Origin: Raillietiella orientalis
Taxonomy: Eukaryota
Direction of reading: 5' to 3'
Length of the DNA stretch: 64,000 nt
Assembly: GCA_036172245.1 (NCBI GenBank)
Contig: JAYWIR010000043.1
Coordinates: 682,001 to 746,000 of the forward strand
The notes under the pieces were generated by a model. That model had not been told where the DNA came from and ran no database searches. It saw only the letters and a list, made by a program, of their open reading frames with translations. Shown in pieces: positions 1 through 28,929 of the stretch (positions are counted from its first letter, which is position 1; each line of letters starts with the position of its first letter). A program made the position numbers and the translations under genes.

Positions 1-1809
1 AATAACTTTACATCTAAATATGGCAAAACATGCATTGAAATTTGATACAGAGAAGAGTATGATATCAACAGACAGATAAGATTTGATTGAATTTCATTCA
101 AATGTTTGCGTCATGAAGTGACCGCACGGTGCCTATACGGTAGTATTGCTTCCAAAACATATTAACACACTATGTTTACCAAAAAAACTTTCTTTGGGGC
201 AATACTCACCACTAATTGGGTATCCGTTTGAAATTCTGCCATTGCTAAATATTTAGAAACAGCAGTTCACATGACAAGTGCATAAATATGACACGGCTTT
301 CATGGAAATTCATGATTAAAATATACATTTCCATTGCAGACATGGCTTTCTAAAGATGAAAACATCACAACTCCTATAAACATAACAAACGCAAAACATT
401 TTCGAAAATCAGTTTATACTCACCGATATCAGTGACTCTGATGATTAAAGTTGGGCGTTTCGTAAAAACGGCACACCTAGAACTAAACAGGAGAAATTAT
501 CTTTTGGGAAAAACATAAACACTCTTCTTTCATAGATCCTTCTTTTTCGCAGCTTCAGCCGCACTCGCGCATCCAAATGTATTTCGAAAACGACCCGACG
601 GTGTGACATCGGAAAACCGAGGGCACGATTAAGTTAATGACCGTCTTGTAATTACTTTTTGCTTAATACGGAAATAATGAAGAATCCCTCCGTCACTCGA
701 GGTTCGAGTGAGATGAACATTAAGCATATGGTTTTGACAGGGAAAGGCCATCCGTGAGTGCCCAGGTCACTATGAGGCCAACGTCGAAAGACTCGATTTT
801 AAAGTGCACACAAAGAAACTTCCATGAAACTTCACATTATTTCCAATGTAAAAAAAGGGCAGAGGACCGATTCAGCAAAAAAAAAAGGAATGGTTGCAAG
901 CGGCCACATGCGGGAAGAATCGTGGCTAAAGGGCCTTGGAAGGAGGGAAAACTCCTCATTTAGCTTGAAACTTGGTATCGAAACGAAATTTTGCTGGGAA
1001 GAAAACAAAAGCTATACCATAGTCCCTTTCGGTTTCAGATGTTACTCGAATAAAGAAAAGTCTCCAATAGAACCTGTGGAGCCAACAGACTTGAGTGCCC
1101 CATAAGGGCGCCGAGTCGTCATCCCCAGAGGGCTGGCAGTTCCACTTCCTGAAGATCCAAGAGCCAACGTTTGCAAAAGGTCTTTTGTGTGTAAACCACG
1201 GCACACAGAACTCAAACATGCAACGAATCATCCCAAGTTACAGATGATGATTCACCATTTTGTATTTCATGGTCCTGACTATGCTCATTACTATGTTACT
1301 CGACGCTATAATGCTATTTATTAGATGATATTGAACTCTACAGAGGTGCTCTTTCGAGGGTTTCCTATAATGTGAGAAAATCAAGTGAATCATCCACTGA
1401 TTTGTAATCAAAGAAGTCTTGATTAATAGTTACTCTGTTCTCCAGAAGCAAGAATTATTCAACGATCAACTGGGAGGTCTGAATTAAAGGCTTCTAATTT
1501 CAACTCAACAATAATCCTTGGAAATTCCAGAAATTGATCTCCAAACATTGATTAATGATCGCTATTTAGTAGCGAACTTCAATGAGCTTGAATGCTTTTG
1601 CTCTGTGACTGTATTCACTAGAGGGAAAAATGCAGATTTTTATTATAAGCTATAGTACAATTTCCCAAGATATGACTAATGAAATTATGGAAAATACAAT
1701 CAAGTAATGAATAATTAGAGTATTTTGGGTGAAAGAATTTTCTGTGTGTGAAAATTAAGACATGTCCTCCCTAGAGTTCCAATGGAATTTAAGATTTTCC
1801 ACCAGAAGA

Positions 1810-3925
1810 CAAGGCAGGGAATCAGCCTGCTAAAAAAGAAGGCAGTGAGGAATCCACTCCTGAGACTCGTTGGTTCTCTGATATAAGCCTCCATCCAGTT
1901 GTCGAGGTGATGGCTTGCTTCATTCTTCCCATGATGGCGTTGTGTCGGTCTTGATGATAGGATGAGTGCCTCGTTCAGTGGTCCAAAATGTGAGACAGGG
2001 TTTCATCCCAGGTATCACATTTTCGGCGCAGCCTGCTAAAGAGGCAGACTGATTCCCTGTCCACTTGCTCCTCCAGCTGCTGGCCAGAGTCGAAGAAGAG
2101 ACTACCGGTCTACCTGGATTGGAACGGGATGCCGCTTTTCCCAAAAGGTGGCGATCTGAAACCAGTGACTCAGGGGACACACCCTGTCCCTCCTGAATTC
2201 CGATGCAAAGTGCATGGCCAAGATCTGAGAAAATCGGTTGAAAAGATGATTGGATCGGCGACCATGGAATCTTGTGAAGTCCTAGGAAGACAAATATGGG
2301 AAAAAACGTCAAGTGTGACGAAGCTCTCCTAGAGAACGTGCATCCAAGCATACGAAGTGGTACTGAGCCTAACTGTTATTGAGAAGATATTCGATTTGGT
2401 TGGCCACACGATTCCATGGAGGGTGCGCTTCCAGAGGAATTTCATGACATACGGTCACCGTGTAAATGCAAAATCTGAGTCGCCCTCAATGGTATGAACA
2501 CAGACGACATTAAGATGGAGAGTGGAGGTTACCAAGGAGATATCTTGAGTACCGTGAGCTTTGTCTTCTATGTAGAGGCGATAGCATACCATTTAACAAA
2601 GGGTAGTCTACCGAGGACTTCGCCTGGGATGGGAAAGTGTCACCAACTTGGCCTACGCAAAAATAAGAAAACGCTTCTCACTATTGCAGAGATCTCAGAT
2701 TGGAAGGAAACGTGAAACATAGACGCGAGTTTAAGATCAACGGAGCAAAATTCAAACTGCTCCCTGCTGGAATTCCGGACACCGCTATCCTGAAAAATGG
2801 TTTGAGCATAGTGGATGGCATGAAGAACCTGGGAATCCACACTAGTGGACGAATAGACGTTGCCAGACTCCGAATGGAAGGAAACTGTTGATAACATCAG
2901 GAAGGAGTACTAAGAATACAACAGAACGAACTTCTCTTCAAAGGAGAAGGTCAATCTCAGGAACAAAGTGCTCGAACCCAAGTCCCTCTTTGACATGGCC
3001 TTGCACTAAGTCTCGGAGAAAATGACCAACCCCCAAGGAACACTCGTATGAAAAAATGCAAATGGAATTGAGGTTTCTGTGCTCTATGAGAGTTGAAGTG
3101 CTGCACTGGGATGCGTAAAATTGCCAATGCCACCGAGATCCAGGATGTGAGCCACTTAATAAGTCCCGTTAACTCTTGGGAGGAACGGCCGCACATTTTC
3201 CACCGAACATGCTCAAGATTGTTTACCGGAACCGACGTCACTTTCATCCCTGTCTGGAATACCAGGATAGTAGAGAAAGATCAATCCCACCGGCCGAGGT
3301 CAACCTGAACCTAGGATTTGTCCCGAAGAACAAGAAAATCTTAAGGGGCCGGTCATGAGGATGTTTCTTTTAGTAAGCGTTCTATGGACTAAAGAAATAT
3401 GCTTCAGGGAAAATCAAACATCACCATCGAAGGATACGAACATTTCTCGACCAATGGAAACATGTACGAAATTGTACTAATACAATATGCAAGAGTGGAC
3501 AATCTACAAGTCCAGAGATGTCTGACAAGCACAAAAGACACAACAGATCTAGGTGAATCCCCAATCTCTAGAAAGGCACATAAAGCAGAAGGCGATCGGA
3601 GTACATGGGCACCATCCATAAAATTTTTCCATAGAGACTGTGCTGTGAATACCTTCGTTGCCTCCAAAGATCTAAGACAATCTTCTGATGTTTTGTCATG
3701 AAGGAATCCTGTACGGCTCTCTCCTTCAACACAGGAACCAGATTATAGGCCATGTCCAGTATGCATGACCGCTGAAGCCGACTTATACCTCTATACCTGC
3801 CAAATTCTTGTTCAAGATGGGGAAACAGTGAGGAAGAGATGCAACTACAAGCAGTGATCAAACTTGAAATCCAACGAAAACTCCTTCAGGATCAAGGAAA
3901 TTTCTTGTACAATCCCATGGTAAGG
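1810..3925 (+). mobile_element. Heavily decayed L1/Tx1-like non-LTR retrotransposon ORF2 (RT region and C-terminus)
   Basis: Broken peptides LFPKGGDL, LSLLNSDAKCMAKI*ENRLKKMIG and IKMESGGYQGDILSTVSFVFYVEA align by eye to the better-preserved copy at 61770-62588 (LLPKGGEL, ISILNSDAKWLAKIW, MERGVRQGDSLSPMLFVIYMEA). Many stops and frameshifts. Confidence 0.8.
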
Positions 3926-3926
3926 A

Positions 3927-3973
3927 AAGGTTTCTATTTCATCTCACAGAGAGGGAGATGAAATAGAAACCTT
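3927..3973. repeat. Perfect 19-bp inverted repeat with 9-nt loop at the junction of two opposed LINE remnants
   Basis: aaggtttctatttcatctc-acagagagg-gagatgaaatagaaacctt. Confidence 0.95.
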
Positions 3974-3974
3974 C

Positions 3975-4667
3975 TCATCTCATCTCGTTCCAGCTGTATC
4001 TTTTCTTAGAAGGAGCACAAGAAGTCCTTCACTGAGCTCCGGATACCAGAAGGATCCGAATACCCTTGTCTGCAGTCGTACAGCAGATGGTAGCACAGAG
4101 ACCGCCAGACCAGCTTCTCGGATCCGGCCATAAATTCTGTCAACCTTCGTCCGTCGGCATGTCTGGAGGCGATGCGTGATTGCAAAACGGTGCTGCCGTT
4201 ATGCACACCCTCTTCGAAGCCAGCTGGGGGGAGGTCGAGGGGTTAGAAACACTCGTAAAACTTTCGGACCGGGACCTTGGGCAATTCCCAATCTTCGAGT
4301 CTGCGAATGGTGAAGCCAGGAAGAGAACCGCCGAGTATTTGGGCAGCTCCCGGATGACTCAACCAATCTCCAAACAACAACCCCACCTTAATTGGTGGCC
4401 CTTTTCCTGGTTGCCACAACTCCAGCTCGAGTCTGAGGTGGTCCTAGAGAACTGACGCTTCTCTTTCTCGACTGTCCATTCGAGAACATAAGTGTTCATC
4501 GAGGAAGATGTGATCGATGACCTCCCAGGTGCCAACAAGCTACATGCATTCACGGATGCAAACTGCTCGCAGAACTGCACATGATGCACCTGCGCCCACT
4601 TGCCACTCGACAGCAGACGAATTTAAATTCTCTTCCTATCAGGTGAGCGACGCACGGGCCCGCACTA
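3975..4667 (-). mobile_element. L1/Tx1-like element: distal half of the APE endonuclease plus linker (continuation of 6530-7925 beyond the viral insert)
   Basis: Minus strand reads HLIGREFKF (decayed GGDFN), then IDHIFLDEHL, then SVL*DHLRLEL (SDH), then LEDWELPK. Collinear with the EN at 61150-61550. Confidence 0.75.
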
Positions 4668-5645
4668 GTGTGTACACCACAGCACACAGATTGTTTGCTT
4701 ACGATTGGAGTGGATGTCGAGGTCTATGATCCACCTATCGTAGCTCAGTTTTGAGTAATCGGACTCCCAGTTGGCGAAGACGATGACATGTGAGGTTTCG
4801 TAATATTTGATGGATCTCTGGTATTTGGGATCGAAGAGGATGCCATTTTTTAGAGATTCAATGAACCCGTACTGGACCAGCTCCTTAGCGTCGCGGGTGA
4901 AGTCGAAGACGGTGATGGGCTCACCATTGTAGAGGTGTGCTGCATCTGCTTTCTTGCAGCTCTGCATATATAGTGATTTTCTGTGTAGGAAGAGAAATTT
5001 GGCAAAGGTAGTTTTGCCTGCGTTTCCCTTTCGAGTCCTCAACCCAGTAAATATTGCTGGGATGTGGTGGTCTTCGTAACAGCTCAATGACATCAAGTTG
5101 CCATGTGCGTAAACGTAGTGAAGCCAATGGGTTCGTTACGGTATCGTTCCGATATATCCGAAAGCACTCTTTGATGAAATTGATGTTTCTTGAATAGAAC
5201 CTGGTGTGGTTCTCGAGGATGTATTTCTCGTTACAGATTTGAGAAGCTGCAAAATCTGAAAATAAAGAACAAAGCAATGATGTGAAAAGGAATAAAAAAT
5301 TTGTTATTTTTTTCTCGTAGTTTTCTTCGGCTGGGTTGTCATCCAGGCAGCCGTAGGCCCACGGATGGGGATCCTGCTTGCTACAGTACTGGAGGTTGCT
5401 TGTAGCGGATCCTTCCGCGTGTTCCAGATGGCACTTGGAGATGGTGGTCTTCGTATTTGAGGCAATGTTCTCGGCTCGTGCAGCTGGAGGTAGCCTTGCA
5501 GGTGTGGAGTTCCTCCTTCACCTTCTCCCTCGGCGATAAGAGGGAAGGGGCAATGAAGTCTGCACCACTTTTTAATCGTTTGGACTTCATCTTCGGAGCA
5601 ATTGATTAAAGTTAGGCACCAATGCGTAAATGCAGTATAGGGCAT
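4665..5645 (-). pseudogene. rep: CRESS virus replication-associated protein (HUH endonuclease + SF3 helicase), two frameshifts
   Basis: MPYTAFTHWCLTLIN (RCR motif I), TPHLQGY (motif II); shift at ~5445; HLEHAEGSATSNLQYCSK (motif III), LRTWQLDVIELL..IYWVED; shift at ~5025; GNAGKT (Walker A), TVFDFTR (Walker B), VIVFAN (motif C), LSYDRW (Arg finger); stop at 4665. Confidence 0.95.
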
Positions 5646-5679
5646 CTTGCGTAAGACTACGAAAACCAGTGGTGATCTC

Positions 5680-5686
5680 TTATATA
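5680..5686 (-). promoter_or_regulatory. Putative TATA box of viral rep
   Basis: TATATAA on the minus strand about 35 nt upstream of the rep ATG at 5645. Confidence 0.5.
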
Positions 5687-5746
5687 CCGAGATGATGCGC
5701 ATTCAAGTGGTGTATGGTGTTATGGTTTTTGCTGAAATTCTGATAT

Positions 5747-5760
5747 GGTAACAGTAAACC
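5747..5760 (-). other. Putative rolling-circle origin, nonanucleotide TACTGTTAC in a residual stem-loop
   Basis: Minus strand GGTT-TACTGTTAC-C has 2 mismatches to TAGTATTAC, is closed by GGT/ACC and lies in the rep-cap intergenic region. The outer stem is degenerate. Confidence 0.5.
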
Positions 5761-5989
5761 TGTTTGGCTGGCTATTGTTTTTGTGTGGTGGGCGTGTGAG
5801 CGTGTGCGTGCAGGAATGCGGGCAAAAAGCGTGTCATGCGAGTCGCAACGTGATCGTGGAGGACGGGGAGTCCTAAAAATGTACGTGGAAGACTGATGCG
5901 GTTGTGTATGATGGAGAGGGGGGTACAATAACGTGTGTATGGTTGATGAGGAGTCAGTAGGCAGTCGACTCTGCCGAAGGCAGGAGTCT

Positions 5990-6532
5990 ATGGCTTTGGT
6001 AGTCTCTAGGAAACGTAAGTGGAAGGTGTCAGGAGGTGTGACGAAAAAGCGTAGATTTCTGAGACGTAGAAGGGTATTTGAGCAGAAGTGGTTGAAGAAG
6101 TTTAGATGGAAGAAGAGGAGAGTATCGCGTCCGTTAAAGTGGAAGCTAAGCTATTTGAAGAGAGCTGTGGAGAGAATGTCTATGGTAGAATGTGTGCACT
6201 ACTGTTGTCACAGAATGAAGACAGGTGGAAAAGTTAATACAGCTTGGATGTTTAGTTATCGGGAGTTGCAAGATTTGTTGTCAAGTCTGCGCGATCGTAA
6301 TCTGCAGGATCTTTGTAGGTATTTCCAATATGTGAAGTTGGTCGGTGTTCGTTACAAGGTGGAGCCGTTGACGTTAGGAATGTCAGGTTCTTAAAATGGG
6401 AGGCGATTTTGGGTTGAAGATATCGTATCGAAATTTGTTAATGTGTGAACCTGCGAACGCTCCAGGCAGTGTACCTTTGTTGGAAGGGAATTCCTATTAC
6501 GATATCCAGTCGCACCTGAGTACTTACTGCTA
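5990..6532 (+). pseudogene. cap: CRESS virus capsid protein, disrupted after codon ~134
   Basis: Arg/Lys-rich N-terminus MALVVSRKRKWKVSGGVTKKRRFLRRRR..KKRRVSR, followed by YFQYVKLVGVRYKVEP, which resembles the Y..YRI..V...F strand of circovirus-like jelly-roll capsids. Divergent from rep. Stop at 6392-6394. Confidence 0.75.
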
Positions 6533-7925
6533 CCGAGGTCACAGAAAAGCTGAGCCCTGGTGCTGTCGTACAGCGTACCTCTCGGTGCGTAGATGTTTTT
6601 GATGACGAGATCGATCGAGTTGGACCACTTCAGAAGAAGCTGCCCAAATCGATAGTCCTCGTTAAAATGCGCGAGGCGCATTTTAACGAGGACACTGCAC
6701 AATCGCTTCAAAAAGAAGGCCACTCTGTATAAGTGAGCAGTGCCATCCTTCCAATGCAGTTTTCCCCCCGCACTTCTCTCGATGTCCACGATTTCCTGCC
6801 ATGAGATCTGGCGAAGCAGAGGGAGGTCGAGGGAGCGCAGAGGGCCCACTTCCGCGCGGCTCTTTTCGTCATTCCAACAGGCGATGCGAAAGCGACGAGG
6901 GGAGGCAAGGTTGCGCGTTTTGTCTGGGAAGATGACGGGGAAGATCCTGCCTGAACCTCTGGCGGCTGGAACAGGTACACGGAGGGTGCCAGCATATTGT
7001 CCAGGGACTTCTGCCTTTGCCGGCTGAGATCGCCCTCGCGGTTGCATCCCTTTTTTGAGGTGTCTCCCGAGGACACTTCCATCTCCCTTCCTGTTCCCCC
7101 ACCCCGGCGGTTTCCCATCTCCGGGAACTGGACTTGCGCCTTCGCGAGGTGGTTGAAGCATCGCCTTTGGTCGCACCGGATTCGAACTCCTTCTCTGAGT
7201 CGGGAGTTGTGAGCTGGAGGTGGCTGATGGTTGCCTAAGGCAACGCTCTCTGTCAGTCGCATCCTCTGTCGTTCTCACTTGTACTTGTTGAAGTCGACGA
7301 TTGCAGGGACAACATGGCTTCCTAAAATGACCTTGCAGGTCTGAGAAATCGGTGCATCACGATGAGTCTGACACGCTTGTCGGGCGTGGGATAGCTCAGC
7401 GTCCTTTTGGGTACACAGAGCGTTCAGCGTCCTCCACAAGCTCTCCTTGTCTCTTGTGATAACACTCACTCTTAGCCTTTCTGGACACCGTTTCCTGGAA
7501 GGCATCGTTAATATTAATCGTTGGCTTCCCCAGGAATTTTATTCGAGAGGATCTTCGACTCATGATTGGATCCTCCTTGAGCAAAGGTGATGCCTCTAGT
7601 CGCAGATACCTTCTCATTCTACATCAACCATGCCTGTCTTGTATGTCCGAGCTGCGTTGGGCCGCAACATTGGATTCTGAGGCATCTCTTTTCTTGGTGT
7701 CGCGTTTCGCCACATTCTTCTCAAAACCTGGGCTTTTCTACAAACCAAAGATCGATAGATTTTCTACTGATCATCATTCTGTGGAGAATCTTCCACTTCT
7801 CGAAAGAAATGCGTGCCGCAGAGAGCCCACTAGATGGAGTGGAACTCCTTGATGGGATTCGCTTTACTCCAGAGTGCGTGAATGGTAGCGTTTGAACATG
7901 AGGTAATTACGTCGCGTTCCCAAAG
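6530..7925 (-). mobile_element. L1/Tx1-like element: ORF1-like remnants and N-terminal half of the APE endonuclease
   Basis: ORF 6391-7278 contains RFRIACWN, ISWQEI, YRFGQLLLKW and LVIKNIYAP (conserved EN motifs). Basic, broken ORF1-like frames lie upstream. Confidence 0.75.
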
Positions 7926-7926
7926 C

Positions 7927-9930
7927 TTTTCACTCGGTTGCGCCGAGGCTTTTATTTTAATAAAAAAATAGAACCACAAAAAGAACAAAGAATGTAGTTT
8001 TATGTGTTTCGTAAATAAAAAAAAGAATGAAAAGGGGTTTATCTGGGGAAAACTCTCTGACTCTCAGCAAAGAAGAAATTGTCGGTAGCATTGAAGGAGT
8101 CGAAGGACCTAACGGGAGGTGGAGATAGGAACACCGGGCTAGCTGCCTCGCTTCTGAATTCTTCTTGCGATGTTGCTGATCTCCCTGCTGACTCCCTGTT
8201 TCAGATGAGGCCACCTGCGTGCCTTCTCTGGGTCGACCATAGCGATGCAAGCAGCCTCTCGCTGCCTCTGGCGCAGCTCCAGCGAGTATCGGGCCGTGGG
8301 GCGGCCGCGGATGCAACACGAAGTCGCCATCACGGCTGCAGACGAGATCCCCTCTCGCGTAAAGAAGCGTCGCAGCAGTTCAGTCGGCGTATCTTCCGGG
8401 TGAAGGATTGCTGAAGCCGGCCTCTCCCACGATGGACTGATGACGCGGCAGCTCATCAGCAAGTGGGGGAGCGATGCGATCTCCCTACAGGGGTGCCTGG
8501 CGCACTCTCCAGAATGACACCCACTCGTCACGTTGTGCATGCATTTGTTGCAGGGAAGACCCCAATGCAAGAACAGAATCACGTCGTGTTGCCAACGGAG
8601 GGGGAAAGAGGTCAGTATTGTTCAAACCACAAGGGAGGGGCACAAAGTTATTCCGGGAGCACACTCGACCCAGAGGCGGAGTCCCTTCTCCTGCAAGCAG
8701 GACATAGCCGCGTCGGCCACCACTTTCGTGGAGCACCCGCCTATTTTTCCCCTTCCCACGAAGGAACAGAACTTTTACCTTGCCAGTAGGCAACTGCCAT
8801 TGCTTTCCATAGGGAAGACAGCGCTGTGGCCAAAGGTGTGGCGAATGCACAAGTGCACTAGGTCAGTTCTCCAACGATTCCTTGCAGGGTCATTGTTGCG
8901 AATCGATAACCGAACGAGATCTTCCATGCTGATGCTAGTCAGCCGAGCCCTAGAGTCCACAGACTCCTGCTCGCCAGGATGAAAGTCCAGAAGGCGGCGG
9001 GAGATCCGCTCGTTGGACTCCGGCGGCGAGGCGAGCTGCTTCAGGGCTCAACCCCAAGCGCCTTAGCCATTTCCAGTTGCGAAAAAGCAAGAACGCTAGT
9101 CCCTCGCAGCCAGCCGCTCGCCGCAAAATGTGGTGAGCGGGGAGACACCACTGCTGGCTCCATGCCTTCCTCATCAAGGCAAGTCTTCGTAAATGGAACT
9201 GCGGTTCCATCCTCTTCAATGTCAGGATGGCGAGTCCAGCATCCCTTCCAAATGACAGAAAGGACACCGGCCCATCCCAAGTTTTCCTTGTCGAACCTGT
9301 CTACATGTTGAACATTATCGTTGTCTCCCTTCTCCGGACTCCCTCCTCCTCCCCATTTTTTTTGCTTTCTCTCCTTCCATATAAGACTGGACGGACACCT
9401 GCAGAAAAAACTATGGACCTCTTGAAGGTCGAAGGATTGCCACAAAGACACTATGATTGAGCCACGAAAGGATACAGCGCTACACATCCTCACTTTTACG
9501 AAGATGGAGTACATCTCTAGTTCAGAATGATGTCCTTGATGGCTGAGAACAGGATGAAGCATTGGTGCCTGCCTGCCCGCGAAATGCTGAGGCGCACTGT
9601 CGATTGTGCATGAAGGTGGTTGGGTTCCCCCTGAGGCAAATCGCTGCCCATGGGAAGAACATCACTGGATATGCTGTTTCTCTGCAAACTACAACGCTTG
9701 GAGTCTGGAGGCAGTTGGCAGCTGGATCCTCATCACACGCACCGGAGCATAGTCGATACATCCACCCATAAGCTGGGAGCAGTCTCCCGGGAGGAAGCGA
9801 AAAGGAACCAAAAGTGGGCTAAAGCCGCTTTCATCTCCCTAGCCACAGCATTATCTTTCCTACGGGAGAGAAACAATAGTTGCCATCCAGGTGGATCAGT
9901 GGTCTCGTGACCCGCAGCAGGAGCCACGAA
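7927..9930 (-). mobile_element. L1/Tx1-like 3' portion (post-RT region, C-terminal Cys/His domain, 3' UTR, terminal hairpin)
   Basis: RDAGLAILTLKRM and WQHDVILFLHWGLPCN..C...C..LPHLLMSC. T-rich UTR, AATAAA and hairpin at 7933-7956. Confidence 0.8.
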
Positions 9931-10089
9931 GCTGGTGGGCCGGTCGACGAAACTAGCTCTCCCTCCATTGCTTATTTTTACTTATTCATTACCTCCACAC
10001 CTCTTTGCTCCAGCCCTTACACGCAGCTGATCTCAGAGCCATCTCTAATAAATGTTTTAGTGCGGAGTAGGAACCCACTTTTTACCTTT

Positions 10090-11450
10090 GTTTCTTGTTT
10101 TCCATAGTCTCCCAAGCGCGACTGGGAGGATTCTCGTAAGCAAACTCAACAAGAGAAATCAGTGCTTGCACAGACTAACGCCACACCCAACCCATCAACT
10201 TCACTGCGAAAAAGAAAATGCAACGACCTGTAGCGGAGGGCAGGCCATACTGTTTCCAAAATGCAAAAGTGCAAGGTGGTACCAAGACGATGCCTCTGCA
10301 GAGTACTGCTCCGAAACCGCCAGCCTGCCAGCGCGTCCGAAGTCCATTAACGAAGCGAGCGACGTAATGTACATACTGCAAACGCGTGCCACACCACAAG
10401 CTGCGTGAACCCCATGTACAGTCTACGGGCTACGAAATGAAGTTCTAGATGATGGTGCTGAGGAGGTAGACACCTTGCAAGTGGGTGTGCACCCAAGGCC
10501 CGCAAACGCGAAGTATCTGGGTGGCCATCAATTGCAGTCCCCTAAGAAGGCAAGGGAGTGGAAACTGCCGTGTCACACTAAGCACCGAGGAAAGACAGGA
10601 GAAAGTGTAATGAATGGCAGCTCCATGAAGCAGGGTTAGGATAACGCCAAAGCTGCTCTTGTGGAGGAGGAAGTTGCCTGATGACAGATCCATTCCTCAC
10701 ACGCAGCAATGTGGAGAACAGCTTGTCATCTCACTGCATTTCGTTAGAACGTCGGAAAACTGCAGGAAGATTTAAAGCGACCCACAGTAGCAAACGCGCT
10801 GTTTCTTCAAACTTGCACTTCTCCAGGAAATTCCTAATGCCTCCAATGGAGTGATGGACGTACTAAATAGCAGTTGCAGTGGTAGAAGGCAGCGTACACA
10901 GGAAGCTATTTTCGTGGTACTACTCTGCAAGATTGTCTGAAGTCTAATTCCCTGTAAAGCTGGCTGTGGCGAAAAATGTGCCAAGCGTTCGTTTCGACGA
11001 GAACAGACGAATGGGCAGGTTGTTAGCCAGTGCTTCAACTCGATTGATCTCGCACTTATCTAAGAGTTCTTCGAAGTCTTGCAAAACTACTGGTCCACGA
11101 GCACTGGCCACAGAGAAACCCACCTAATGCAGGAAACTTCAACGCTCACCTATCCTCAAACAAGAAATGTCTGAGGCAAAACACGGAAGTGAATAAGCTG
11201 TGCACGCAATTCACGTGCAAAACTTGTTAAACTGGTAATCTGTGGTGAAAAGCTCTGTGCATCACACCTTCGATGACCACCTTAGAGTTCCGGGGTAAGA
11301 AAGAGTGCAATCTGAGGGTAAGCATTTGAGTATCTGAGGGTGAAGTTCGGACTGATTCCGCATGACAGGGTCCCTCCACACAGCTAGTGAAGAATGCCGA
11401 TGGATTGGCTAAGTATCTGGAACCGGACGAAGAACTATTTGTGAGAATCA
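10090..11450 (+). mobile_element. Possible very old RT remnant
   Basis: Only short motifs (NAKYLG, RITPKLLLW) resembling the LINE thumb region. No long ORF. Confidence 0.3.
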
Positions 11451-11759
11451 CTGGTTATTAGGGACATGCATGCGATTGCTGTCAAACAAAATGTATTTTT
11501 GTATTTTATATCTTCTGTTCATAAATTACCAAACATGGTCGCAATTCTGCAATTTTTAAAATACACTTCATGGAAATGACATCTCTAACTGGTTCCAAAA
11601 TCACAAAAGTCAAGAAAAAAAATTAATACAACTGCAAAATAAACCAAAGCAATCATCCAATGCCTGAGAAAATTTTCCGGAGATTAAAAAAAATATGAGA
11701 TCCTGTATCTTGAAAAATGATGTGAAGGTTTTCCCATGTTCATTTCACTCTGCATTTTC

Positions 11760-14700
11760 TTATATCTGAACTCTGATGAATTTTTGGATGACTGCCTCTT
11801 GTGCTATCAAGTCCTTTTGAATCTTTTTCCGCATATAAAAGATGGGACAATCATGACTAGAGACCAAAAATTGAAGATGAAAGTACTGTTGCAAATTCTT
11901 ACTTGGTGCAGATCACTTCTTGATGCAAACTACCTTGACATCTTTGACATTCTGTCCATAATCTGGAAAATTTGTCTTCAAGCCCTCTTAGATGAGTGAT
12001 TTCCTTGAGGAAAATTTGACTATCTTTTGTTTGGCAGTGTGAACACAGAACATCTCCCTCATTTTCTAATAAGGAGCGACAGCTAATACAGACAGCACGT
12101 TTCTTGATAAAGGCTGCCAATGCTCCTACTTTTGATGTAACAAATGTCTTTGTCCGTGTATGTTCTCCTCCTAAGAAAATTTAGTAAAAAAAAAACACTA
12201 TAATGATGTGCATACTCATTAAAATTGACTCAGCTTTCGATCCCAAAATTGGCTCAAAAATTCGAAGCAAAGGCTGATTTAATTGGTGATTTAAATAATA
12301 TTCATAATCTATGGGGATGTTATTTTCCAATACGTATATTGGATCCTGAAATGTTCAGAATGAGAAGGAAAATTTTTTTTCTTTTGAAACCATTGAACAG
12401 AACCTCAAAATCAAAATAAAGCAGTCAACTCAGAAAACATTCATTTGCAAGTTATCTTTGAAGATGACAGAATTTAGATATGCTGATAAGGGGAAAAACA
12501 GAGAATAATTTGCATCACAACTCTTGAAGTATGAAAGTTAAATAAAACATGACTGTTGCTTTGATGAATCTAACAATACTGGAAAGCAACAGCATAGAAA
12601 ACTGCCACATAAATTCACATTTCATTTGTGCATACACGTAATTATTGCAAACAATTCAAGGATGTAAATATGTAAACTTGAAATCAAGAATTGATTCCTG
12701 ATTTCTAAGGCTAAATATCAGTTATTTTTGTGCTTGATCTAAAGCATCCAAGTTTTTCTTAATCTTTCTAGTCTAAACATATCGTATAGATAGTTTTTCA
12801 ATTCTATTTATTTTTTATGCACATTGAAGAATGCCATTATTTTTACATTCGCTTTCCCTACAACTTCCAAACTCCAGAAGTTCTTTTTGGACTAAACCAA
12901 GTTTCCAAATATCCAATTTCAATTCTAAGACTTTAACTCAAAATTTAACAAAACAAAGGCATTTGACGTAAACTTAATGACTGCATTTTTCCAGAACTTT
13001 GAGGACTTTCAGAACAGGATACAAAGCCACAAAACACTGAAGCATTACATTATACTTGACACTTTGAACTAATTACAACATCTATTAAAACTTCAATTAA
13101 AGCTGCAAAGGTGAAATACAGTCAAATAGAATTTAATTAGAAAAAATACAATACTACATACTGCACTTTGAAATGCAGAAATCTGAACAGATGTTGCTAT
13201 GGGATACAAAAACATCCTTTGACTTCATATTCTGGGTTATTCTTTTCTTGTAAACAAAGATGCTGTTCTTTACCATTTTAATTCATATTCAATATCAGCT
13301 GTTTCCAGATTATAGGAAAAGCAATTATCGAACGAAAGTGTCAACTAACAATTACTTTTAATTGTTGCACTCACTAACATTGCATCTGTTACTCATTTAC
13401 TGTACGAAAATCAGATAACTAGCCAAGAAAAATGATGAACCAAAAAAGTAGGATTATGAAAATTTTGCTATTACACACTGTTGTTTCAAGACACATGAAA
13501 GATAAAAGATGATCAATGATGTTATCATGCTGAAGGACTTTCCAAACTGTTAAGGTTACATCATAACTTTTAAAGTGTCTCTACCTTTATTATTTGAAAA
13601 TTCTTACCGGTTTTTTCTGCTGGCTCTTCTCAAAACTTATTTCAAATGTTTGATTGCTTTCCTAAAGTAATATTTTCGCTACGCACACATAGCAATCTAA
13701 AAATTTCATCTACTGAAAACTCAATACTAAAATGGAAAGCTACAAGCATTTCCAAAGCACTTAGTTGCTTAGTTTTCTTGGTTTCTCATAGTCAGTTTGC
13801 AATAGTATGATATAAAATATGCAAATCTTTCCTCTAAATCAACTGATGCTTTATTTTATTTCTTAATTCCAATTTTATTTCATGTATGACTCTGATTGGT
13901 GAACCACAATCAAAATTTACAAAGTAAATAAAAAGATTATTAGAGATGCATCTATTATAAAATTAGATGGAGGAAAAATGCTATTTTCGGTACAAAGGCA
14001 TCAATAAGATCTGAGTTGATAAGCAAAAACCTAATGGATAATGATAATGAATCTAATAAGAAATAAAATGAGAGATCATAAAAAGTTACCAAACTTGGCA
14101 ATATTCTTTGACTACTTATGCAAAAAAAAAAATGCAAAATCAAAAACTTCAAGTACACTTTTTAAAAAGACCGCCTTAACATGGATAAAAGCAAGTTTTA
14201 CGAAAGGAAAATGCAATGGAAAGTTCAAAGCAGTTGCTGCATCAAAGGTACTTTTCAAAGAATCATGCAATTCTGGAAACAGCAAAGCAACATTAAACAC
14301 TTCAAAAGAGATATTAAAATAAATGATATCAAACAAAAATCAACTGATGCATCATTGCCATAAACACTTTTGAAAGAGACAATTTGAAATACAACTATGC
14401 AATAATGCATATTGTGAACAATATCACCTAAGATTCAGCAATTGCACTTTTTTGTACTTACACATCTCAATAAACAATTTGGATGCAAATGCCTCTTAAA
14501 TATCATACCTCAGATTTCAAATAAGTAGGTATGTTTTTTGCAGATGCAACAACAACATAGGGCACACGATCTCCCAGACTTGGAGCTGAGCCTGGGTCTC
14601 GTTTTTTCATTCTATGTGCCAGTTCCACATGGGCCTGCTTTGCTGCATATTCCTTATCTGTCTTGGTAAGTTCTTTAGTAATTACCAACTGAGAAATATC

Positions 14701-17700
14701 AACACGATTGCATAGCAGATCAGAAATTGTCTGCTTAGTAAACTGTACAGCACTGTCTGGATCTCTGCAAGCACAGTGCCTTTATGATTACAGCTTGATT
14801 AACTCACCTGTCAATAAGAATCTTTTGCAAACATGTATTGATTAAATTAGCAACAAGAGGACAATTGTCACGCCGAACTGTTTCAATACCCTTACAATCC
14901 ATTTTGTCATAATGGTGGGGATTGGTAAAATATAAGCCAGCATAACGCTTTTTGTTGATCAAAAGGTAAGGAAAATACACCTAGCACAACAACATATAGT
15001 AAAATCACAAAAAGCAACAAGTACCTTTTCAAACTCTAAGTGAATAGGCTTCAGGAATTGACTTGATACATATTCTGCTGCTTGCTTTCCAAGATCCATA
15101 GCTTCCTTCACAGTTGACACCCCAAACTTTATCATCACTGAATCAGTATCACCATAAATGACCTTCGAACTATTAACTTAAAGGTTATTCTATCTAATTG
15201 ACTACCTGTGCATTATGGGCAAATCCCTTAGCTATGGTGAAATGATCTTCTACCAAAGTCTTGGCATCATCAATCATTTGGCGACCAAAAGCAGTAACAC
15301 TCTGTGGGATAACTATATATAAGTGTGCACTCAAAACTTACTGAAGAGATTTCAAGACATGGCAGCTTGCCCACTTGTGCACCAGTAAAACCATATACTG
15401 AATTAGCACTGATCTTCAGAGCCAGCTGACGTCCATCCAAAACTTTTTGGAGAAATGGGTCTGTCTCTTTCTTAAGATTTAATTTAACTTTTCTCCTTGC
15501 TTCAAGTAGGTCTTCCAAGATTTCAGGAAGCAGACCTTTCCTAACTGATCCTTTGACAAACATATTGCCAGTGGGAGTACGGGTGTACTGATCCTCAGAA
15601 AGGCTAGTAAACAATTGTTTATCAGTCAACTTGATTTGTGATGATACCCAAAAGTTTGTGGATTATTAAGAAGCGTGGTGTAACATAGATTGTGAGCCAT
15701 CATGATTGATGGATACAAAGAGGTAAAATCCAGAGTTGTAATTGGAACATTGTAGAAACCCTTTATTGGCTCAATAACAGTTGCACCAGCAAAATCTTCT
15801 CCTGGCTCTGTTCGGTGCACAGGCATCAACAAGTTATGTTCTTTAGCCTGAATATAAACATAGGATGCAAAAGCAAAGAATGGATATACTTGCCTTACGA
15901 AGAAGCTGTGTAACCACTTTGATCTGCTGACCTCGAGTTAACAGATAAGCTAGAGGGACACCTGTAACTCTTGCCATCTCCATGTAATTGATGATACACA
16001 TGAGTTTATCCAGCAGCCGCAAAGGGAGATAGGCATCCTTCAAACAATATACGGCCAGTCTGTACAAAGACAAATGAATAGAATATAGATTGATGTTGAA
16101 CCAACCTACGACGCGTTATTTCATTTCCTTGCTGAAGGTCACTTATGATGGAATGATGGACATCTTCTTTCTGTTCTTGCAGAAAATGATAACTAACCGC
16201 ATTCAAAGTATATGACCGAAGCTTATAGTCTCGTAGAAGAATCTGACCAAGAAATTTAATTCGTGCCTACATACTCAAGAATAAAAACGAAAGGTGAAAA
16301 AACTGTGCGAAATTATAGAAGATTAATGTCTTTTCGCCATTAAAGAGAATAGTTTGTGAATAAACGTCTGTTCTACCAAAATATTTAATAATCCCCTGTT
16401 CACAAAAAACTGTCATGCAATTACACAGATGCAGGGTTCAACATCAAATAGCTCAACTATCATGCAATTCTTGTAAACAAGTTTTGTGAAGTGCGTCTTT
16501 TCCTTCCAAATGAAAAAATAATTAGCAAATGAAAAGAAAATTAGCATAGTAAACAAAGGAAAGCTCAAACTCAAGTACACTAAGCAAACAGTAACAATGA
16601 ATTTTAATGAATTAAAAAAATCATTAATCCTAATGTCGCACTTTCAGGACTATTGCATAAAAAATTCACTTTCCTATTACGAATTTCAACATGCTCCTTT
16701 GGTACTTTATATTTGTCATACACAATTTTCAAGCAGAACTCTTTTATGCTTACACCTGAATGATCGAAAATTAAATTATTGTGCACAATAACATTGTCAA
16801 TTATTTATCTTCTTTCTTTCATTAGCTGTACCTTTCTGCTTGAAGCAAAATACTTCATCTTTTACAAGAAAGAGCAAATTGAAGCTAGTTTCTATTGTCC
16901 CCAACCAAAATGAAACTTTTCAAAACATTGTTTCATTACCTTTCAAGAGTCTATTTAGTATATACATTTACTAAGTTGGGATGAGAATTTTCCCTTAAAT
17001 GAATGTGTCCCATAATGTGAAGAATTTTTTTTAGAATCAGACAAGTTAATTACAAATAACTCAACCTGATGCGTCTTTGTATTTCAGACTTCCTGAACAA
17101 TATCTATTTTGTTCTTATTTTACATTTGTCCATAAGCCCAAAATGTGCCTACATAATTCATCCACTGGATATTAACATGAAATGACTCATTTTTCATAGA
17201 CATTTCTATTAGTCTTATAATTATTAATCAATTCACTGAGGCAAGTTGCTCCATTGCTTATCATTCCTATAGAATTCCATTCTCCTAGTTTTGCTCCTTC
17301 TTCAAATTTGTTAATTTCTTCCACTCAGCAAATAACCTCTACCACAAGTTGCTCACTTTAACAATGAAAGAATGTACTCGCATTCTCAAGCTCATTAAAT
17401 AGAAGCAAAAATCGTGCCAAATTTACAAAGTAGACATTAGCATACAAAACCAAAATCTGAAACCATAAAAAACCGTGATGAAATAAGTTGTGAATATTCG
17501 CAGATTTCCAACAACTATTCAAAGCACTGTCACTGAAAACCCAATGGTAGGGAACAATCAGATTCAACAACTGCAATTATAATCTCCATAAATACAACCT
17601 TGATCCAACAGAGCTGAAATCACATCCAGAGCAGAAGAAAAGGATAACAAGGGAATGTAAATATAGGGTGAAATGTGGAGCATCAAGGAAAACCTTTTTT

Positions 17701-26899: not shown

Positions 26900-27808
26900 T
26901 CTTTAGCAGGCGTTGAGCCTGGAGCTTCGCCTTGTAGGGAAACAGACAAACAAAAAACAGGGGGCAGAGGAGGGGAACCTCGAAGGTGTTCCCAATTGCA
27001 GCGTGTTCCGACTAGTTGAACTGGAAATGAAGGAACGGGATGAGGGCCATCTCAGACTTCCGAGTAGCCCCCCTCCATTGGCAACACGACGTGATTCTGT
27101 TCTTGCATTGGGGTCTTCCCTGCAACAAATGCATGCACAACGTGACGAGTGGGTGTCATTCTGGAGAGTGCGCCAGGCACCCCTGTAGGGAGATCGCATC
27201 GCTCCCCCACTTGCTGATGAGCTGCCGCGTCATCAGTCCATCGTGGGAGAGGCCGGCTTCAGCAATCCTTCACCCGGAAGATACGCCGACTGAACTGCTG
27301 CGACGCTTCTTTACGCGAGAGGGGATCTCGTCTGCAGCCGTGATGGCGACTTCGTGTTGCATCCGCGGCCGCCCCACGGCCCGATACTCGCTGGAGCTGC
27401 GCCAGAGGCAGCGAGAGGCTGCTTGCATCGCTATGGTCGACCCAGAGAAGGCACGCAGGTGGCCTCATCTGAAACAGGGAGTCAGCAGGGAGATCAGCAA
27501 CATCGCAGGAAGAATTCAGAAGAGAAGCAGCTAACCCAGTGTCCCTATCCCCACCCACCCGTAATCTCATTTGTTTATGCTTCTACTCCTTCAATGCTGC
27601 ACACAATCTCTTCTTTGTCCTGCGAGTAGGCGAGTCCTCCCCTGATGAACTTCTCTCTGTTTCTTATTTCTTTTAATCCACAGGGGACTACAGCTGAACC
27701 TCTTTTTATGCTTTTTTTATTTATAAAACACAAGGACCTACATTCCCTCGTTTTGTGTGGTTCTATTTTTTTATCAAAATAAACGCCCCGGCGCAACCGG
27801 GTGAAAAG
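26900..27808 (+). mobile_element. L1/Tx1-like 3' end
   Basis: WQHDVILFLHWGLPCN..., near-identical to 8168-8604 in inverted orientation. AATAAA 27778 plus hairpin 27787-27801. Confidence 0.85.
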
Positions 27809-27911
27809 CCTTCAGACGTGTTTTTCGTCCGTCCCGCGAAAGGTAAGGGTTTTCGTTTTCGAGTCAGCAATCTGGACAAGCTGCGCTCCGAAGGATCGTT
27901 GACTCTCAAGT

Positions 27912-28900: not shown

Positions 28901-28929
28901 GCGTAGCGCGCGCTGACCTCTACTGATGT

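What the first reader, a model, noticed from the sequence alone, without database searches (positions are those of the whole stretch)
4665..6532. Apparently complete ambisense CRESS DNA virus genome integrated into a LINE endonuclease through a 3-bp CTA microhomology
Seen: rep and cap sit between two CTA trinucleotides 1865 bp apart (4665-4667 and 6530-6532). Deleting the insert and one CTA fuses the flanks in frame on the minus strand: NIYAPRGTLYDSTRAQLFCDLG|SAGPCVAHLIGREFKF. That is the expected path from the EN 'NIYAP' motif to the decayed 'GGDFN' motif. Established: 1.7-2.1 kb is typical for circovirus-like genomes, and most CRESS endogenous elements are rep fragments only. Inference: a whole circular genome recombined into the chromosome in a single crossover away from its origin. 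This would preserve the full architecture of a probably undescribed virus and link that lineage to an invertebrate germline host.
Basis: partly seen in the sequence, partly recalled or inferred. Interest (0 to 1): 0.88.

Follow-up and report, generated by a model that had tools for sequence, protein, structure and literature searches.

The report
CRESS virus fossil inside a LINE
A roughly genome-sized piece of a small circular DNA virus, with a broken replication gene and a probable coat gene, sits inside an old jumping-gene remnant of a eukaryote chromosome; it is a good example of a known kind of viral fossil.

Summary
The sequence facts hold. CTA lies at 4665-4667 and 6530-6532. Leaving out 4668-6532 fuses the flanks in frame on the minus strand.

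**Rep** is real. It runs 5645->4668 on the minus strand with all the usual motifs. Its helicase part matches three Viral_Rep proteins from 1-2.1 kb contigs at E 4e-23 to 3e-18. It is broken by two frame changes.

**Cap** is inferred only. The basis is position, an N-terminus with 23 of 50 residues K/R, and a language-model lead. No homologue turned up in 1.84 billion proteins or in 114 related viral loci. It has at least one frame change and at most about 181 codons, against 216-442 in relatives.

**No origin hairpin** was found; 13 of 15 relatives examined have one.

**The LINE endonuclease host site** is supported. The left flank aligns to the endonuclease of an RT-bearing LINE in the same window (E 4e-6). 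Motif spacing is restored to within 2-3 nt once the insert is removed.

**Not shown:** completeness, the 3-bp microhomology mechanism, germline status (no junction-spanning reads) and an invertebrate host.

Whole-genome cressdnavirus integrations are already published (PMC10193959). This is a new member of a known kind and moderately interesting.

The parts
4665..4667 (.). Left CTA. On the minus strand it is the TAG that ends the Rep frame.
   Evidence: reading.
4668..5027 (-). Rep segment 3: SF3 helicase part from the Walker A motif GNAGKT to the C-terminus, with no internal stop.
   Evidence: E 4.2e-23 to 3e-18 against three PF02407 proteins; tblastn 5048/5027->4725, 47-52% identity; alignment, 36 invariant columns.
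5032..5451 (-). Rep segment 2, in another frame: YCSK motif III, an AT-rich linker, and the oligomerisation region up to IYWVEDS.
   Evidence: P0003 residues 73-215 align at 5430-4966, E 1.7e-9 against the window.
5461..5645 (-). Rep segment 1: start codon, motif I (CLTLIN) and motif II (PHLQGY).
   Evidence: Pfam Viral_Rep E 0.0031, 18.2 bits, below the 26-bit cut-off; P0002 residues 35-54 align at 5522-5463, E 0.002.
5646..5989 (.). Intergenic region between the divergent rep and cap starts (344 nt). No origin hairpin is recognisable. It contains a G/T-rich tract near 5786-5812.
   Evidence: 0 inverted repeats; no NAKWRTTAC in the insert; only 6-7 bp stems.
5673..5695 (-). Weak hairpin (6 of 7 bp) whose loop holds a TATATAA, about 30-50 nt upstream of the Rep ATG. 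It could be a TATA box or a degraded origin; this is undecided.
5990..6391 (+). Putative cap, segment A (134 codons, then a stop at 6392-6394). 23 of the first 50 residues are K/R.
   Evidence: atlas lead (0.92 and 0.91 to unnamed viral clusters, commonest phylum Cressdnaviricota); no homologue.
6396..6530 (+). Possible cap segment B in another frame (45 codons up to the junction). Alternatively this is the 3' non-coding region.
   Evidence: reading only.
6530..6532 (.). Right CTA.
6535..6912 (-). Host flank: N-terminal part of a decayed LINE AP-type endonuclease (RIACWN ... ISWQEI ... NIYAP).
   Evidence: block ending in NIYAP against the LINE2 block ending in VYEP: score 39, reached by 42 of 2000 shuffles; atlas lead at 0.89, Exo_endo_phos in 10% of the cluster; spacing. 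There are no Pfam or PDB hits.
4285..4666 (-). Host flank: the rest of the endonuclease (IGREFKF, VIDHIF, stop-DH) and the linker after it, with stops and a frame change.
   Evidence: LINE2 endonuclease residues 100-181 align at 4518-4285, 28% over 82 residues, E 4.4e-6; 30 of 2000 shuffles.
2099..3732 (+). Remnant of a different LINE copy (RT region) in the opposite orientation. It is not part of the LINE that carries the insert.
   Evidence: colinear with 62055-63806, summed E 1.1e-16.
8304..9246 (-). Post-RT C-terminal part of a LINE, upstream of the endonuclease remnant on the same strand.
   Evidence: colinear with 59706-60661, summed E 3.9e-28; reading.

Best explanation
The interval 4668-6532 is an endogenous viral element derived from an undescribed circular Rep-encoding ssDNA (CRESS) virus. 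It carries a full-length but frame-shifted rep on the minus strand. A 344-nt intergenic region follows. A divergently transcribed, arginine/lysine-rich ORF on the plus strand is most likely the capsid gene. This is the ambisense layout of its metagenomic relatives, at about one genome length.

Inferred mechanism: the double-stranded replicative form was opened at or near the point where the 3' ends of rep and cap converge. It was then captured at a chromosomal double-strand break inside an old, already inactive LINE copy, between the YAP and GDFN-type blocks of its endonuclease. Host end joining used 0-3 bp of homology, with almost no loss of target DNA. Since then it has been decaying as a pseudogene.

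Shown: rep homology, gene layout, the LINE-endonuclease nature of both flanks, restoration of frame and spacing, and the breaks in the genes.

Inferred: cap identity, exact unit length, the joining mechanism, and germline fixation.
For: **Rep**
- The helicase part hits 3 proteins with E <= 0.001 out of 83 candidates, at E 4.2e-23, 4.7e-21 and 3.0e-18, with 45-53% identity. All three carry PF02407 and come from contigs of 2121, 1904 and 1015 nt.
- The relatives map onto the window from about 5540 to 4725 in three frame segments.
- tblastx of the rep region against 78 IMG/VR loci reaches E 2e-29.
- A profile of the relatives hits 8 solved CRESS Rep chains, best 7lar_A at E 6.6e-20.
- Rep ends 19 residues after the conserved DRW block. 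The three relatives end 10-20 residues after it, so its C-terminus is of natural length.

**Layout**
- Relatives are ambisense circles. L088 and L089 are about 1.8 kb once their 55-nt terminal repeats are removed. The insert is 1865 nt.
- Cap lead: 23 K/R in the first 50 residues. The nearest atlas clusters score 0.92 and 0.91 and are viral, commonest phylum Cressdnaviricota. Jelly-roll capsid families score below 0.9.

**Host site**
- The left flank matches the endonuclease of an RVT_1-bearing LINE in the same window at E 4.4e-6.
- The right-flank block was reached by 42 of 2000 shuffles.
- Without the insert, Y->G is 90 nt against 93 in LINE2, and Y->I is 208 nt against 210.

**Not a high-copy contaminant**
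- In run X1, four 151-nt contigs match with no differences. Two lie in the flank (depth 3.8 and 3.7) and two in the insert (depth 2.7 and 2.0).
- GC content and CpG ratio of the insert resemble the window: 0.457 against 0.468, and 0.91 against 0.82.
Against: - Cap has no detectable homologue. One hit in 1.84 billion representatives was a repeat protein carrying a mariner transposase fragment. There was no hit in 114 loci at E <= 0.1, and none with 12 profile HMMs of relatives' non-Rep ORFs, where the best score was 3.4 bits. Pfam gave nothing.
- The single-sequence structure model had pLDDT 54.5 and is uninformative.
- The cap path is short, at most about 181 codons against 216-442 in relatives.
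- No origin hairpin was found. 13 of the 15 relatives examined have a 9-16 bp stem with a TAGTATTAC-type or TAATAC-type loop.
- The window's Rep N-terminal piece scores below Pfam's cut-off, 18.2 against 26 bits.
- The endonuclease is not recognised by Pfam, by PDB sequence search or by the large protein search. No RT follows it on the same strand.
- No read or contig spans either junction. X1 may be the very sample the assembly came from.
Confidence: 0.8

Rival explanations
1. The element is not a whole genome. It is a sub-genomic linear fragment that lost the 3' part of cap, the 3' intergenic region and perhaps the origin, either at integration or by later deletion.
For: - The cap path has at most about 181 codons, against 216-442 in relatives. 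Relatives have roughly 30-209 nt between the rep and cap stops, whereas the paper circle here would have none.
- No origin hairpin is present, although 13 of 15 relatives have one.
- The G-x-R-x-D-L/W block that all three relatives share after motif III is not recognisable in the window's AT-rich stretch near 5270-5330.
Against: - The 1865-nt size matches the roughly 1.8 kb circles L088 and L089.
- Rep ends at a stop exactly at the junction, with a C-terminus of natural length.
- Read across the two ends, the segment-B frame would also meet a stop made from the same CTA plus the next G (reading).
- Atlas look-alike clusters have representatives of 129-206 residues.
Confidence: 0.45
2. The 3-nt CTA repeat is not microhomology used in a single crossover. 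It is either a 3-bp target-site duplication from a staggered break, or a chance identity at blunt end-joined junctions.
For: All three models give exactly the observed sequence (reading). The chance of a 3-nt identity is 1 in 64, which is not negligible. The endonuclease spacing is 2-3 nt shorter than in LINE2, so small gains or losses at the site cannot be excluded.
Against: On the minus strand the host frame needs one CTA (codons G-S). Rep needs a stop at this point. Both parents therefore plausibly carried CTA, which favours an exchange within it.
Confidence: 0.4
3. The junctions are an assembly artefact. An exogenous CRESS virus from the sample was spliced into a host contig.
For: No junction-spanning read was seen. 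The viral genes carry only frame changes and no stops, which could be assembly indel errors.
Against: - The insert interrupts one endonuclease domain. Its removal restores frame and spacing to within 2-3 nt on both sides. A chimeric join would not be expected to do this at two junctions.
- Depth of the insert in X1 is no higher than that of the flank.
Confidence: 0.04
4. The viral unit was copied in by the LINE's own reverse transcriptase. During retrotransposition it switched template at CTA onto the circular viral ssDNA, went once round, and switched back.
For: An insert of exactly one turn, bounded by the same trinucleotide inside a LINE, is what one round on a circle would give (inference).
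Against: - The same structure follows from ordinary end joining.
- Over the endonuclease stretch downstream of the insert (about 245 nt), the LINE flank carries at least 2 stops and 1 frame change. The viral coding paths (about 1520 nt) carry 3 frame changes and no stops. This hints that the LINE copy is older than the insert, though the numbers are small.
- No RT follows on the same strand.
Confidence: 0.04

Closest known systems
Endogenous cressdnavirus elements with paired Rep and Cap (krikovirus/Draupnirviridae EVEs in saurian genomes; Kinsella et al. 2023, PMC10193959, passages read)
   Same: The virus genome is integrated in a host chromosome with rep and cap side by side, and it decays by stops and frame shifts. 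That paper reports 17 of 36 Cap-like EVEs paired with Rep-like EVEs and shows a complete genome integrated in a lizard chromosome.
   Different: The Rep lineage here is different and unclassified. Cap has no detectable homologue. The host is an unidentified eukaryote. Both junctions can be read to the base because the target is a recognisable LINE endonuclease.
Endogenous circoviral elements (CVe) of animal genomes (Dennis et al. 2018, PMC6069186, passages read)
   Same: These are Rep-derived sequences of CRESS viruses in animal assemblies, used to link viruses to hosts. That paper raises the same caution about contaminating virus.
   Different: That survey found only rep-derived new elements and no new cap-derived ones. 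Here a cap-like ORF and the intergenic region accompany rep. The window's Rep is not shown to belong to Circoviridae.
Uncultivated CRESS genomes from metagenomes (P0001-P0003; loci L079-L086, L095-L105; about 1.8-3.4 kb)
   Same: Rep helicase domain is 45-53% identical. They share the ambisense rep/cap layout and some are about 1.8 kb circles.
   Different: Some have a rep in two exons. The window's cap matches none of theirs.
Nanovirus/alphasatellite-like Reps on about 1-kb circles (loci L001, L107-L113), and the solved Reps of PCV2 (7lar) and a nanovirus-type Rep (6h8o)
   Same: They share the HUH endonuclease plus SF3 helicase architecture. Helicase identity to the roughly 1-kb Rep-only circles is 42-45%. 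The relatives' profile hits these PDB chains at E 1e-19 to 1e-20.
   Different: Those circles encode Rep alone. The labels 'nanovirus' and 'alphasatellite' for the 1-kb loci are my inference from their size and content, not a tool result.
AP-endonuclease (APE-type) domain of non-LTR retrotransposons (LINEs)
   Same: The order and spacing of the blocks match the endonuclease of the RT-bearing LINE at 60992-63400 in the same window.
   Different: The copy is too decayed for Pfam Exo_endo_phos. It has no RT behind it on the same strand.

Membership tests
CRESS-DNA virus Rep (HUH endonuclease + SF3 helicase; Cressdnaviricota) | HUH-endonuclease motifs I, II and III in order | tested here: met
   CLTLIN, PHLQGY and YCSK were read. 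They align with relatives. The motif names are recalled.
CRESS-DNA virus Rep (HUH endonuclease + SF3 helicase; Cressdnaviricota) | SF3 helicase Walker A, Walker B and motif C | tested here: met
   GNAGKT, VFDFTR and VIVFAN fall in invariant or conserved columns with P0001-P0003.
CRESS-DNA virus Rep (HUH endonuclease + SF3 helicase; Cressdnaviricota) | Significant sequence similarity to Rep proteins or the Pfam Viral_Rep model | tested here: met
   E 4.2e-23 to 3e-18 against PF02407-bearing proteins. tblastx to E 2e-29. The window's own N-terminal piece is below the Pfam cut-off, at 18.2 against 26 bits.
CRESS-DNA virus Rep (HUH endonuclease + SF3 helicase; Cressdnaviricota) | Uninterrupted reading frame | tested here: not met
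   Two frame changes, at about 5462-5436 and about 5040-5027. It is a pseudogene unless these are assembly errors.
Complete CRESS virus genome | Capsid gene (jelly-roll protein with a basic N-terminus) opposite rep | tested here: inconclusive
   The basic N-terminus and the position are met, and there is an atlas lead. There is no homologue and no usable fold. At least one frame change is present.
Complete CRESS virus genome | Origin of replication: stem-loop with a conserved nonanucleotide | tested here: not met
   Searches found none in 4668-6532. 13 of 15 relatives have one.
Complete CRESS virus genome | Unit length in the range of related circles | tested here: met
   1865 nt, against about 1.8 kb (L088, L089) up to about 2.6 kb in relatives.
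Complete CRESS virus genome | Nothing missing at the point where the circle was opened | not testable with these tools
   This needs the free virus or a second integrated copy. None was found.
LINE (non-LTR retrotransposon) AP-type endonuclease as the target | Match to the Pfam Exo_endo_phos models | tested here: not met
   No hit at E <= 1 or 0.1. No PDB hit. No hit in the large protein search.
LINE (non-LTR retrotransposon) AP-type endonuclease as the target | Homology to the endonuclease of a LINE that carries an RT | tested here: met
   Left flank E 4.4e-6. Right flank 42 of 2000 shuffles. Colinear spacing. LINE2 has RVT_1 at E 1.4e-21.
LINE (non-LTR retrotransposon) AP-type endonuclease as the target | RT domain downstream on the same strand | tested here: not met
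   There is none. The only RT remnant nearby (2099-3732) is on the other strand, so the copy is truncated.
Endogenous viral element (germline integration) | Host sequence on both sides in one molecule, confirmed by reads | tested here: inconclusive
   This holds in the assembly. The only run found has 151-nt contigs in the flank and in the insert, but none across a junction.
Endogenous viral element (germline integration) | Empty site or orthologous insertion in relatives | not testable with these tools
   No genome is held for the window. There is no sister LINE copy in the 64 kb.

The most novel reading that the evidence does not exclude
The insert is an exactly unit-length, recently integrated copy of an undescribed CRESS virus. 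Its rep and cap stop codons overlap in a single CTAG at the convergent gene ends. It entered the chromosome by one reciprocal exchange within 3 bp at that point and not at the replication origin. That would be a base-pair record of how a circular ssDNA virus enters an animal germline. It would also give a host to a lineage otherwise known only from metagenomes.
Probability: 0.3. Interest if true: 0.55.

Novelty: new member of a known kind. Interest (0 to 1): 0.4.

Why it matters
Hosts are unknown for most CRESS virus lineages. An integrated copy with host DNA on both sides is direct evidence of a past infection of that host's lineage, or at least of its nuclei. This element's nearest relatives come only from metagenomes and share about 45-53% identity in the helicase. 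Because the target is a recognisable protein-coding remnant, both junctions can be placed to within a few bases. That is rare for non-retroviral viral fossils and bears on how circular ssDNA genomes get into chromosomes. The kind itself, whole-genome cressdnavirus EVEs, is already published, so the value lies in a new lineage and host link, not a new principle.

Tried and rejected
- **Whole genome of the window:** not held. Sister LINE copies and the empty site therefore could not be searched. Self-comparison of the 64 kb found no second copy of the insert or of the endonuclease flanks.
- **Flanks:** Pfam on 70 stop-to-stop ORFs of 1-12000 found no EN or RT. PDB sequence search of the right-flank ORF gave 0 hits. 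The large protein search ('longer') scored none of 1956 candidates at E <= 10.
- **Cap homology:** Pfam found nothing meaningful. tblastx against 78, 94 and 114 loci found nothing. HMMER against 1.84 billion representatives gave one hit, P0004, rejected as a repeat protein with a transposase fragment. Twelve profile HMMs built from 222 non-Rep ORFs of related loci scored at most 3.4 bits. An IMG/VR scan with cap words found none.
- **Cap structure:** the single-sequence model of cap segment A had pLDDT 54.5, so it was not taken to a fold search.
- **Rep:** the helicase piece against the PDB gave only chance hits. The 'near'-length protein search found none. An IMG/VR scan with the window's own Rep words found none.
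- **Origin:** no inverted repeat in 5600-6050. The NAKWRTTAC pattern has 9 matches in the window, against 8.8 expected, and none lies in the insert. Sliding DNA folds and a hairpin scan found only weak stems.
- **Intron idea:** I considered whether the AT-rich stretch at about 5270-5330 is an intron, as relatives L081 and L086 have a split rep. I found no usable donor by reading, and the stretch is open in frame, so I rejected the idea.
- **Sequencing runs:** one holder, X1, shares 0.16 of the words. No RNA holder is listed. Neither junction is covered.
- **Earlier findings of this scan:** nothing by place, sequence or words.
- **Host taxon:** not determined.
Full report
**1. The observation**

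The junction texts are gcccgcacta|gtgtgtacac and cttactgcta|ccgaggtcac. Leaving out 4668-6532 joins the minus-strand frames ...NIYAPRGTLYDSTRAQLFCDLG and SAGPCVAHLIGREFKF... without a shift. On their own these facts are weak: a 3-nt identity has a 1 in 64 chance and an in-frame join a 1 in 3 chance. What lies inside and outside the interval therefore had to be tested.

**2. Rep**

On the minus strand a Rep can be followed from an ATG at 5645 to a TAG that is the left CTA itself. It lies in three frame segments:
- 5645-5461, with CLTLIN and PHLQGY
- about 5451-5032, with YCSK and the region up to IYWVEDS
- 5027-4668, with GNAGKT, VFDFTR and VIVFAN

None of the segments contains an internal stop.

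Pfam sees the first segment only weakly (Viral_Rep E 0.0031, 18.2 bits against a cut-off of 26). The helicase segment, however, finds three proteins of 300-334 residues at E 4.2e-23, 4.7e-21 and 3.0e-18. These were the 3 of 83 candidates that passed, with 45-53% identity. All three carry PF02407 and come from contigs of 2121, 1904 and 1015 nt.

Their tblastn alignments cover the window from about 5540 to 4725 and jump frame exactly where I read the breaks. A profile of these relatives hits 8 solved CRESS Rep chains, best 7lar_A at E 6.6e-20.

Scans of IMG/VR and of metagenome contigs gave 114 related loci, mostly 2.0-3.4 kb contigs plus several Rep-only contigs of about 1 kb. tblastx of the rep region reaches E 2e-29. 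The window's Rep ends 19 residues after the conserved DRW block; the relatives end 10-20 residues after it.

Rep is therefore full length, but it is broken by two frame changes, located between about 5462-5436 and about 5040-5027.

**3. Cap and the rest of the insert**

The layout is as follows:
- A 344-nt spacer (5646-5989) separates the Rep ATG from a divergent plus-strand ORF.
- That ORF starts at 5990 and runs for 134 codons to a stop at 6392-6394.
- A second frame is open from 6378 through the right junction.

The first 50 residues of the ORF hold 23 K/R and 1 D/E. A basic arm of this kind is usual in CRESS capsid proteins (established knowledge) and is seen in the relatives' caps.

The protein atlas places the ORF nearest two unnamed viral clusters whose commonest phylum is Cressdnaviricota (0.92 and 0.91). 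Several jelly-roll capsid families follow below 0.9. This is a lead, not a test, and the recognition value of 2275 is just under the tool's guide value of 2300.

Every homology test failed:
- Pfam
- tblastx against 114 loci
- twelve profile HMMs built from 222 non-Rep ORFs of the relatives, best 3.4 bits
- an IMG/VR word scan
- HMMER against 1.84 billion representatives, whose single hit is a repeat protein with a mariner fragment

A single-sequence structure model was too poor to use (pLDDT 54.5). I therefore call the ORF a probable capsid gene, at about 0.8, with at least one frame change within 6378-6391 if the second frame belongs to it.

**4. Is it a whole genome?**

For:
- 1865 nt matches the smallest circular relatives. 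L088 and L089 are about 1.8 kb after removing 55-nt terminal repeats.
- Rep is entire.
- Read across the two ends, rep would stop at TAG on one strand, and the second cap frame would stop at a TAG made of the last two letters of CTA plus the first G of the insert. The two genes would abut in one CTAG (my reading; I did not build the circle).

Against:
- The cap path has at most about 181 codons, against 216-442 in the relatives.
- The relatives keep roughly 30-209 nt between the two stops.
- 13 of the 15 relatives examined have a 9-16 bp stem with a TAGTATTAC-type or TAATAC-type loop, usually just upstream of rep. The insert has nothing comparable.
- The best candidate is a 6-of-7 bp stem at 5673-5695 whose loop contains TATATAA. 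It may equally be a TATA box.
- The block G-x-R-x-D-L/W that all three close relatives share after motif III is not recognisable in the window's AT-rich stretch.

I put completeness near even odds.

**5. The flanks**

Standard tools do not recognise a LINE here. There is no EN or RT by Pfam in 70 ORFs of 1-12000, no PDB match and nothing in the large protein search.

The window does hold a better LINE on the plus strand, which I call LINE2. It has endonuclease C-terminal blocks at about 60992-61400 and RVT_1 at 61686-63401 (E 1.4e-21 and 1e-6). Comparison with it gives:
- Endonuclease residues 100-181 of LINE2 align to the left flank at 4518-4285 on the minus strand, in one frame, at 28% over 82 residues and E 4.4e-6.
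- The IDH...SDH block alone is reached by 30 of 2000 shuffles. The right-flank block ending in NIYAP, against the LINE2 block ending in VYEP, is reached by 42 of 2000. The short piece just left of the junction shows nothing (1665 of 2000).
- The atlas gives a weak endonuclease lead for the right flank: 0.89, with Exo_endo_phos on 10% of the cluster.

The spacing is the most telling result. With 4668-6532 left out, the Y of YAP to the G of the GDFN-type block is 90 nt, against 93 in LINE2. Y to the I of IDH is 208 nt, against 210.

The insert therefore interrupts a LINE endonuclease remnant, with no more than a few bases of target gained or lost. The LINE copy itself is truncated. No RT follows on its strand, and the RT remnant at 2099-3732 belongs to a copy in the opposite orientation. 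A LINE 3' fragment lies upstream at 9246-8304.

**6. Mechanism**

The sequence fits capture of the double-stranded replicative form, opened near the convergent ends of rep and cap, at a chromosomal break by host end joining. Three variants give the identical product:
- blunt joins where one CTA is viral and the other is host by chance
- a 3-bp target duplication

On the minus strand the host frame needs one CTA, and rep needs a stop there. This mildly favours the first variant. Only the empty site and the free virus can decide.

A fourth idea is one turn of template switching by the LINE reverse transcriptase on the viral circle. It gives the same structure but is disfavoured. The endonuclease stretch downstream of the insert carries at least 2 stops and 1 frame change in about 245 nt. 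The viral coding paths carry 3 frame changes and no stops in about 1520 nt. The numbers are small.

**7. Real integration or artefact?**

No genome is held. The one public run found, X1, holds four 151-nt contigs identical to the window. Two are in the left flank (depth 3.8 and 3.7) and two in the insert (depth 2.7 and 2.0). None crosses a junction, and the run may be the assembly's own source.

Three points argue against a chimera or a high-copy contaminant, but none proves germline fixation:
- the two-sided restoration of the endonuclease
- the flank-like depth of the insert
- the host-like GC and CpG values

The host is a eukaryote (DNA_pol_B/REV3 exons, astacin, LINE RT). 'Invertebrate' was not tested.

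**8. What is known**

- Rep-derived CRESS and circovirus elements are widespread in animal genomes, and cap-derived ones are rarer (Dennis et al. 2018, PMC6069186; passages read).
- Whole-genome integrations are already described. Kinsella et al. 2023 (PMC10193959; passages read) report 17 of 36 krikovirus Cap-like EVEs paired with Rep-like EVEs, and a complete genome in a lizard chromosome.
- My two literature searches were not exhaustive, and I did not look at supplements.

**9. Verdict**

This is a real, near-unit-length CRESS virus fossil with a broken rep and a probable, orphan cap, sitting in a LINE endonuclease remnant. Completeness, the microhomology mechanism and the host clade remain open. 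It is a new member of a known kind, with interest about 0.4.

Noticed in passing
window 15273-15662 (-) and 18866-19183 (-): These look like exons of a DNA polymerase zeta (REV3-like) gene: DNA_pol_B at E 2.7e-30 and REV3_N at E 1.1e-6. They show that the window is eukaryotic nuclear DNA.
   Followed up: no
window 46282-46872 (+): An astacin (M12A) metalloprotease fragment, at E 3.9e-18.
   Followed up: no
window 59706-60661 (+) followed by 60992-64000 (+): A LINE 3' fragment (post-RT C-terminal region) is followed directly by a 5'-truncated LINE with endonuclease C-terminal blocks and RVT_1. The same order, a 3' fragment then an endonuclease, recurs on the minus strand at 9246-8304 and about 6900-4285. 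This suggests head-to-tail LINE arrays.
   Followed up: partly
window 7922-8604 and 27069-27812: An inverted repeat pair at 85.6% identity over 745 aligned positions. It is part of the LINE 3' region.
   Followed up: no
window 6394-7356 (-): An open frame of 321 codons runs from the LINE 5' region through the endonuclease N-terminal part and 46 codons into the viral insert, antisense to cap. It has no family or homologue and is probably chance.
   Followed up: partly
loci L081 and L086 (and L083, L084 by ORF layout): Close metagenomic relatives appear to have rep in two exons. The two tblastn segments are separated by about 70 nt between the endonuclease and helicase parts.
   Followed up: no
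window 5786-5812: A G/T-rich tract in the viral intergenic region resembles the G-rich arm (GGTGGGG) of the relatives' origin stems. It has no complementary arm nearby.
   Followed up: partly
window 28000-31000: A cluster of long open frames on both strands and in several frames (up to 332 codons) has no Pfam family. The region may be compositionally biased or repetitive.
   Followed up: no
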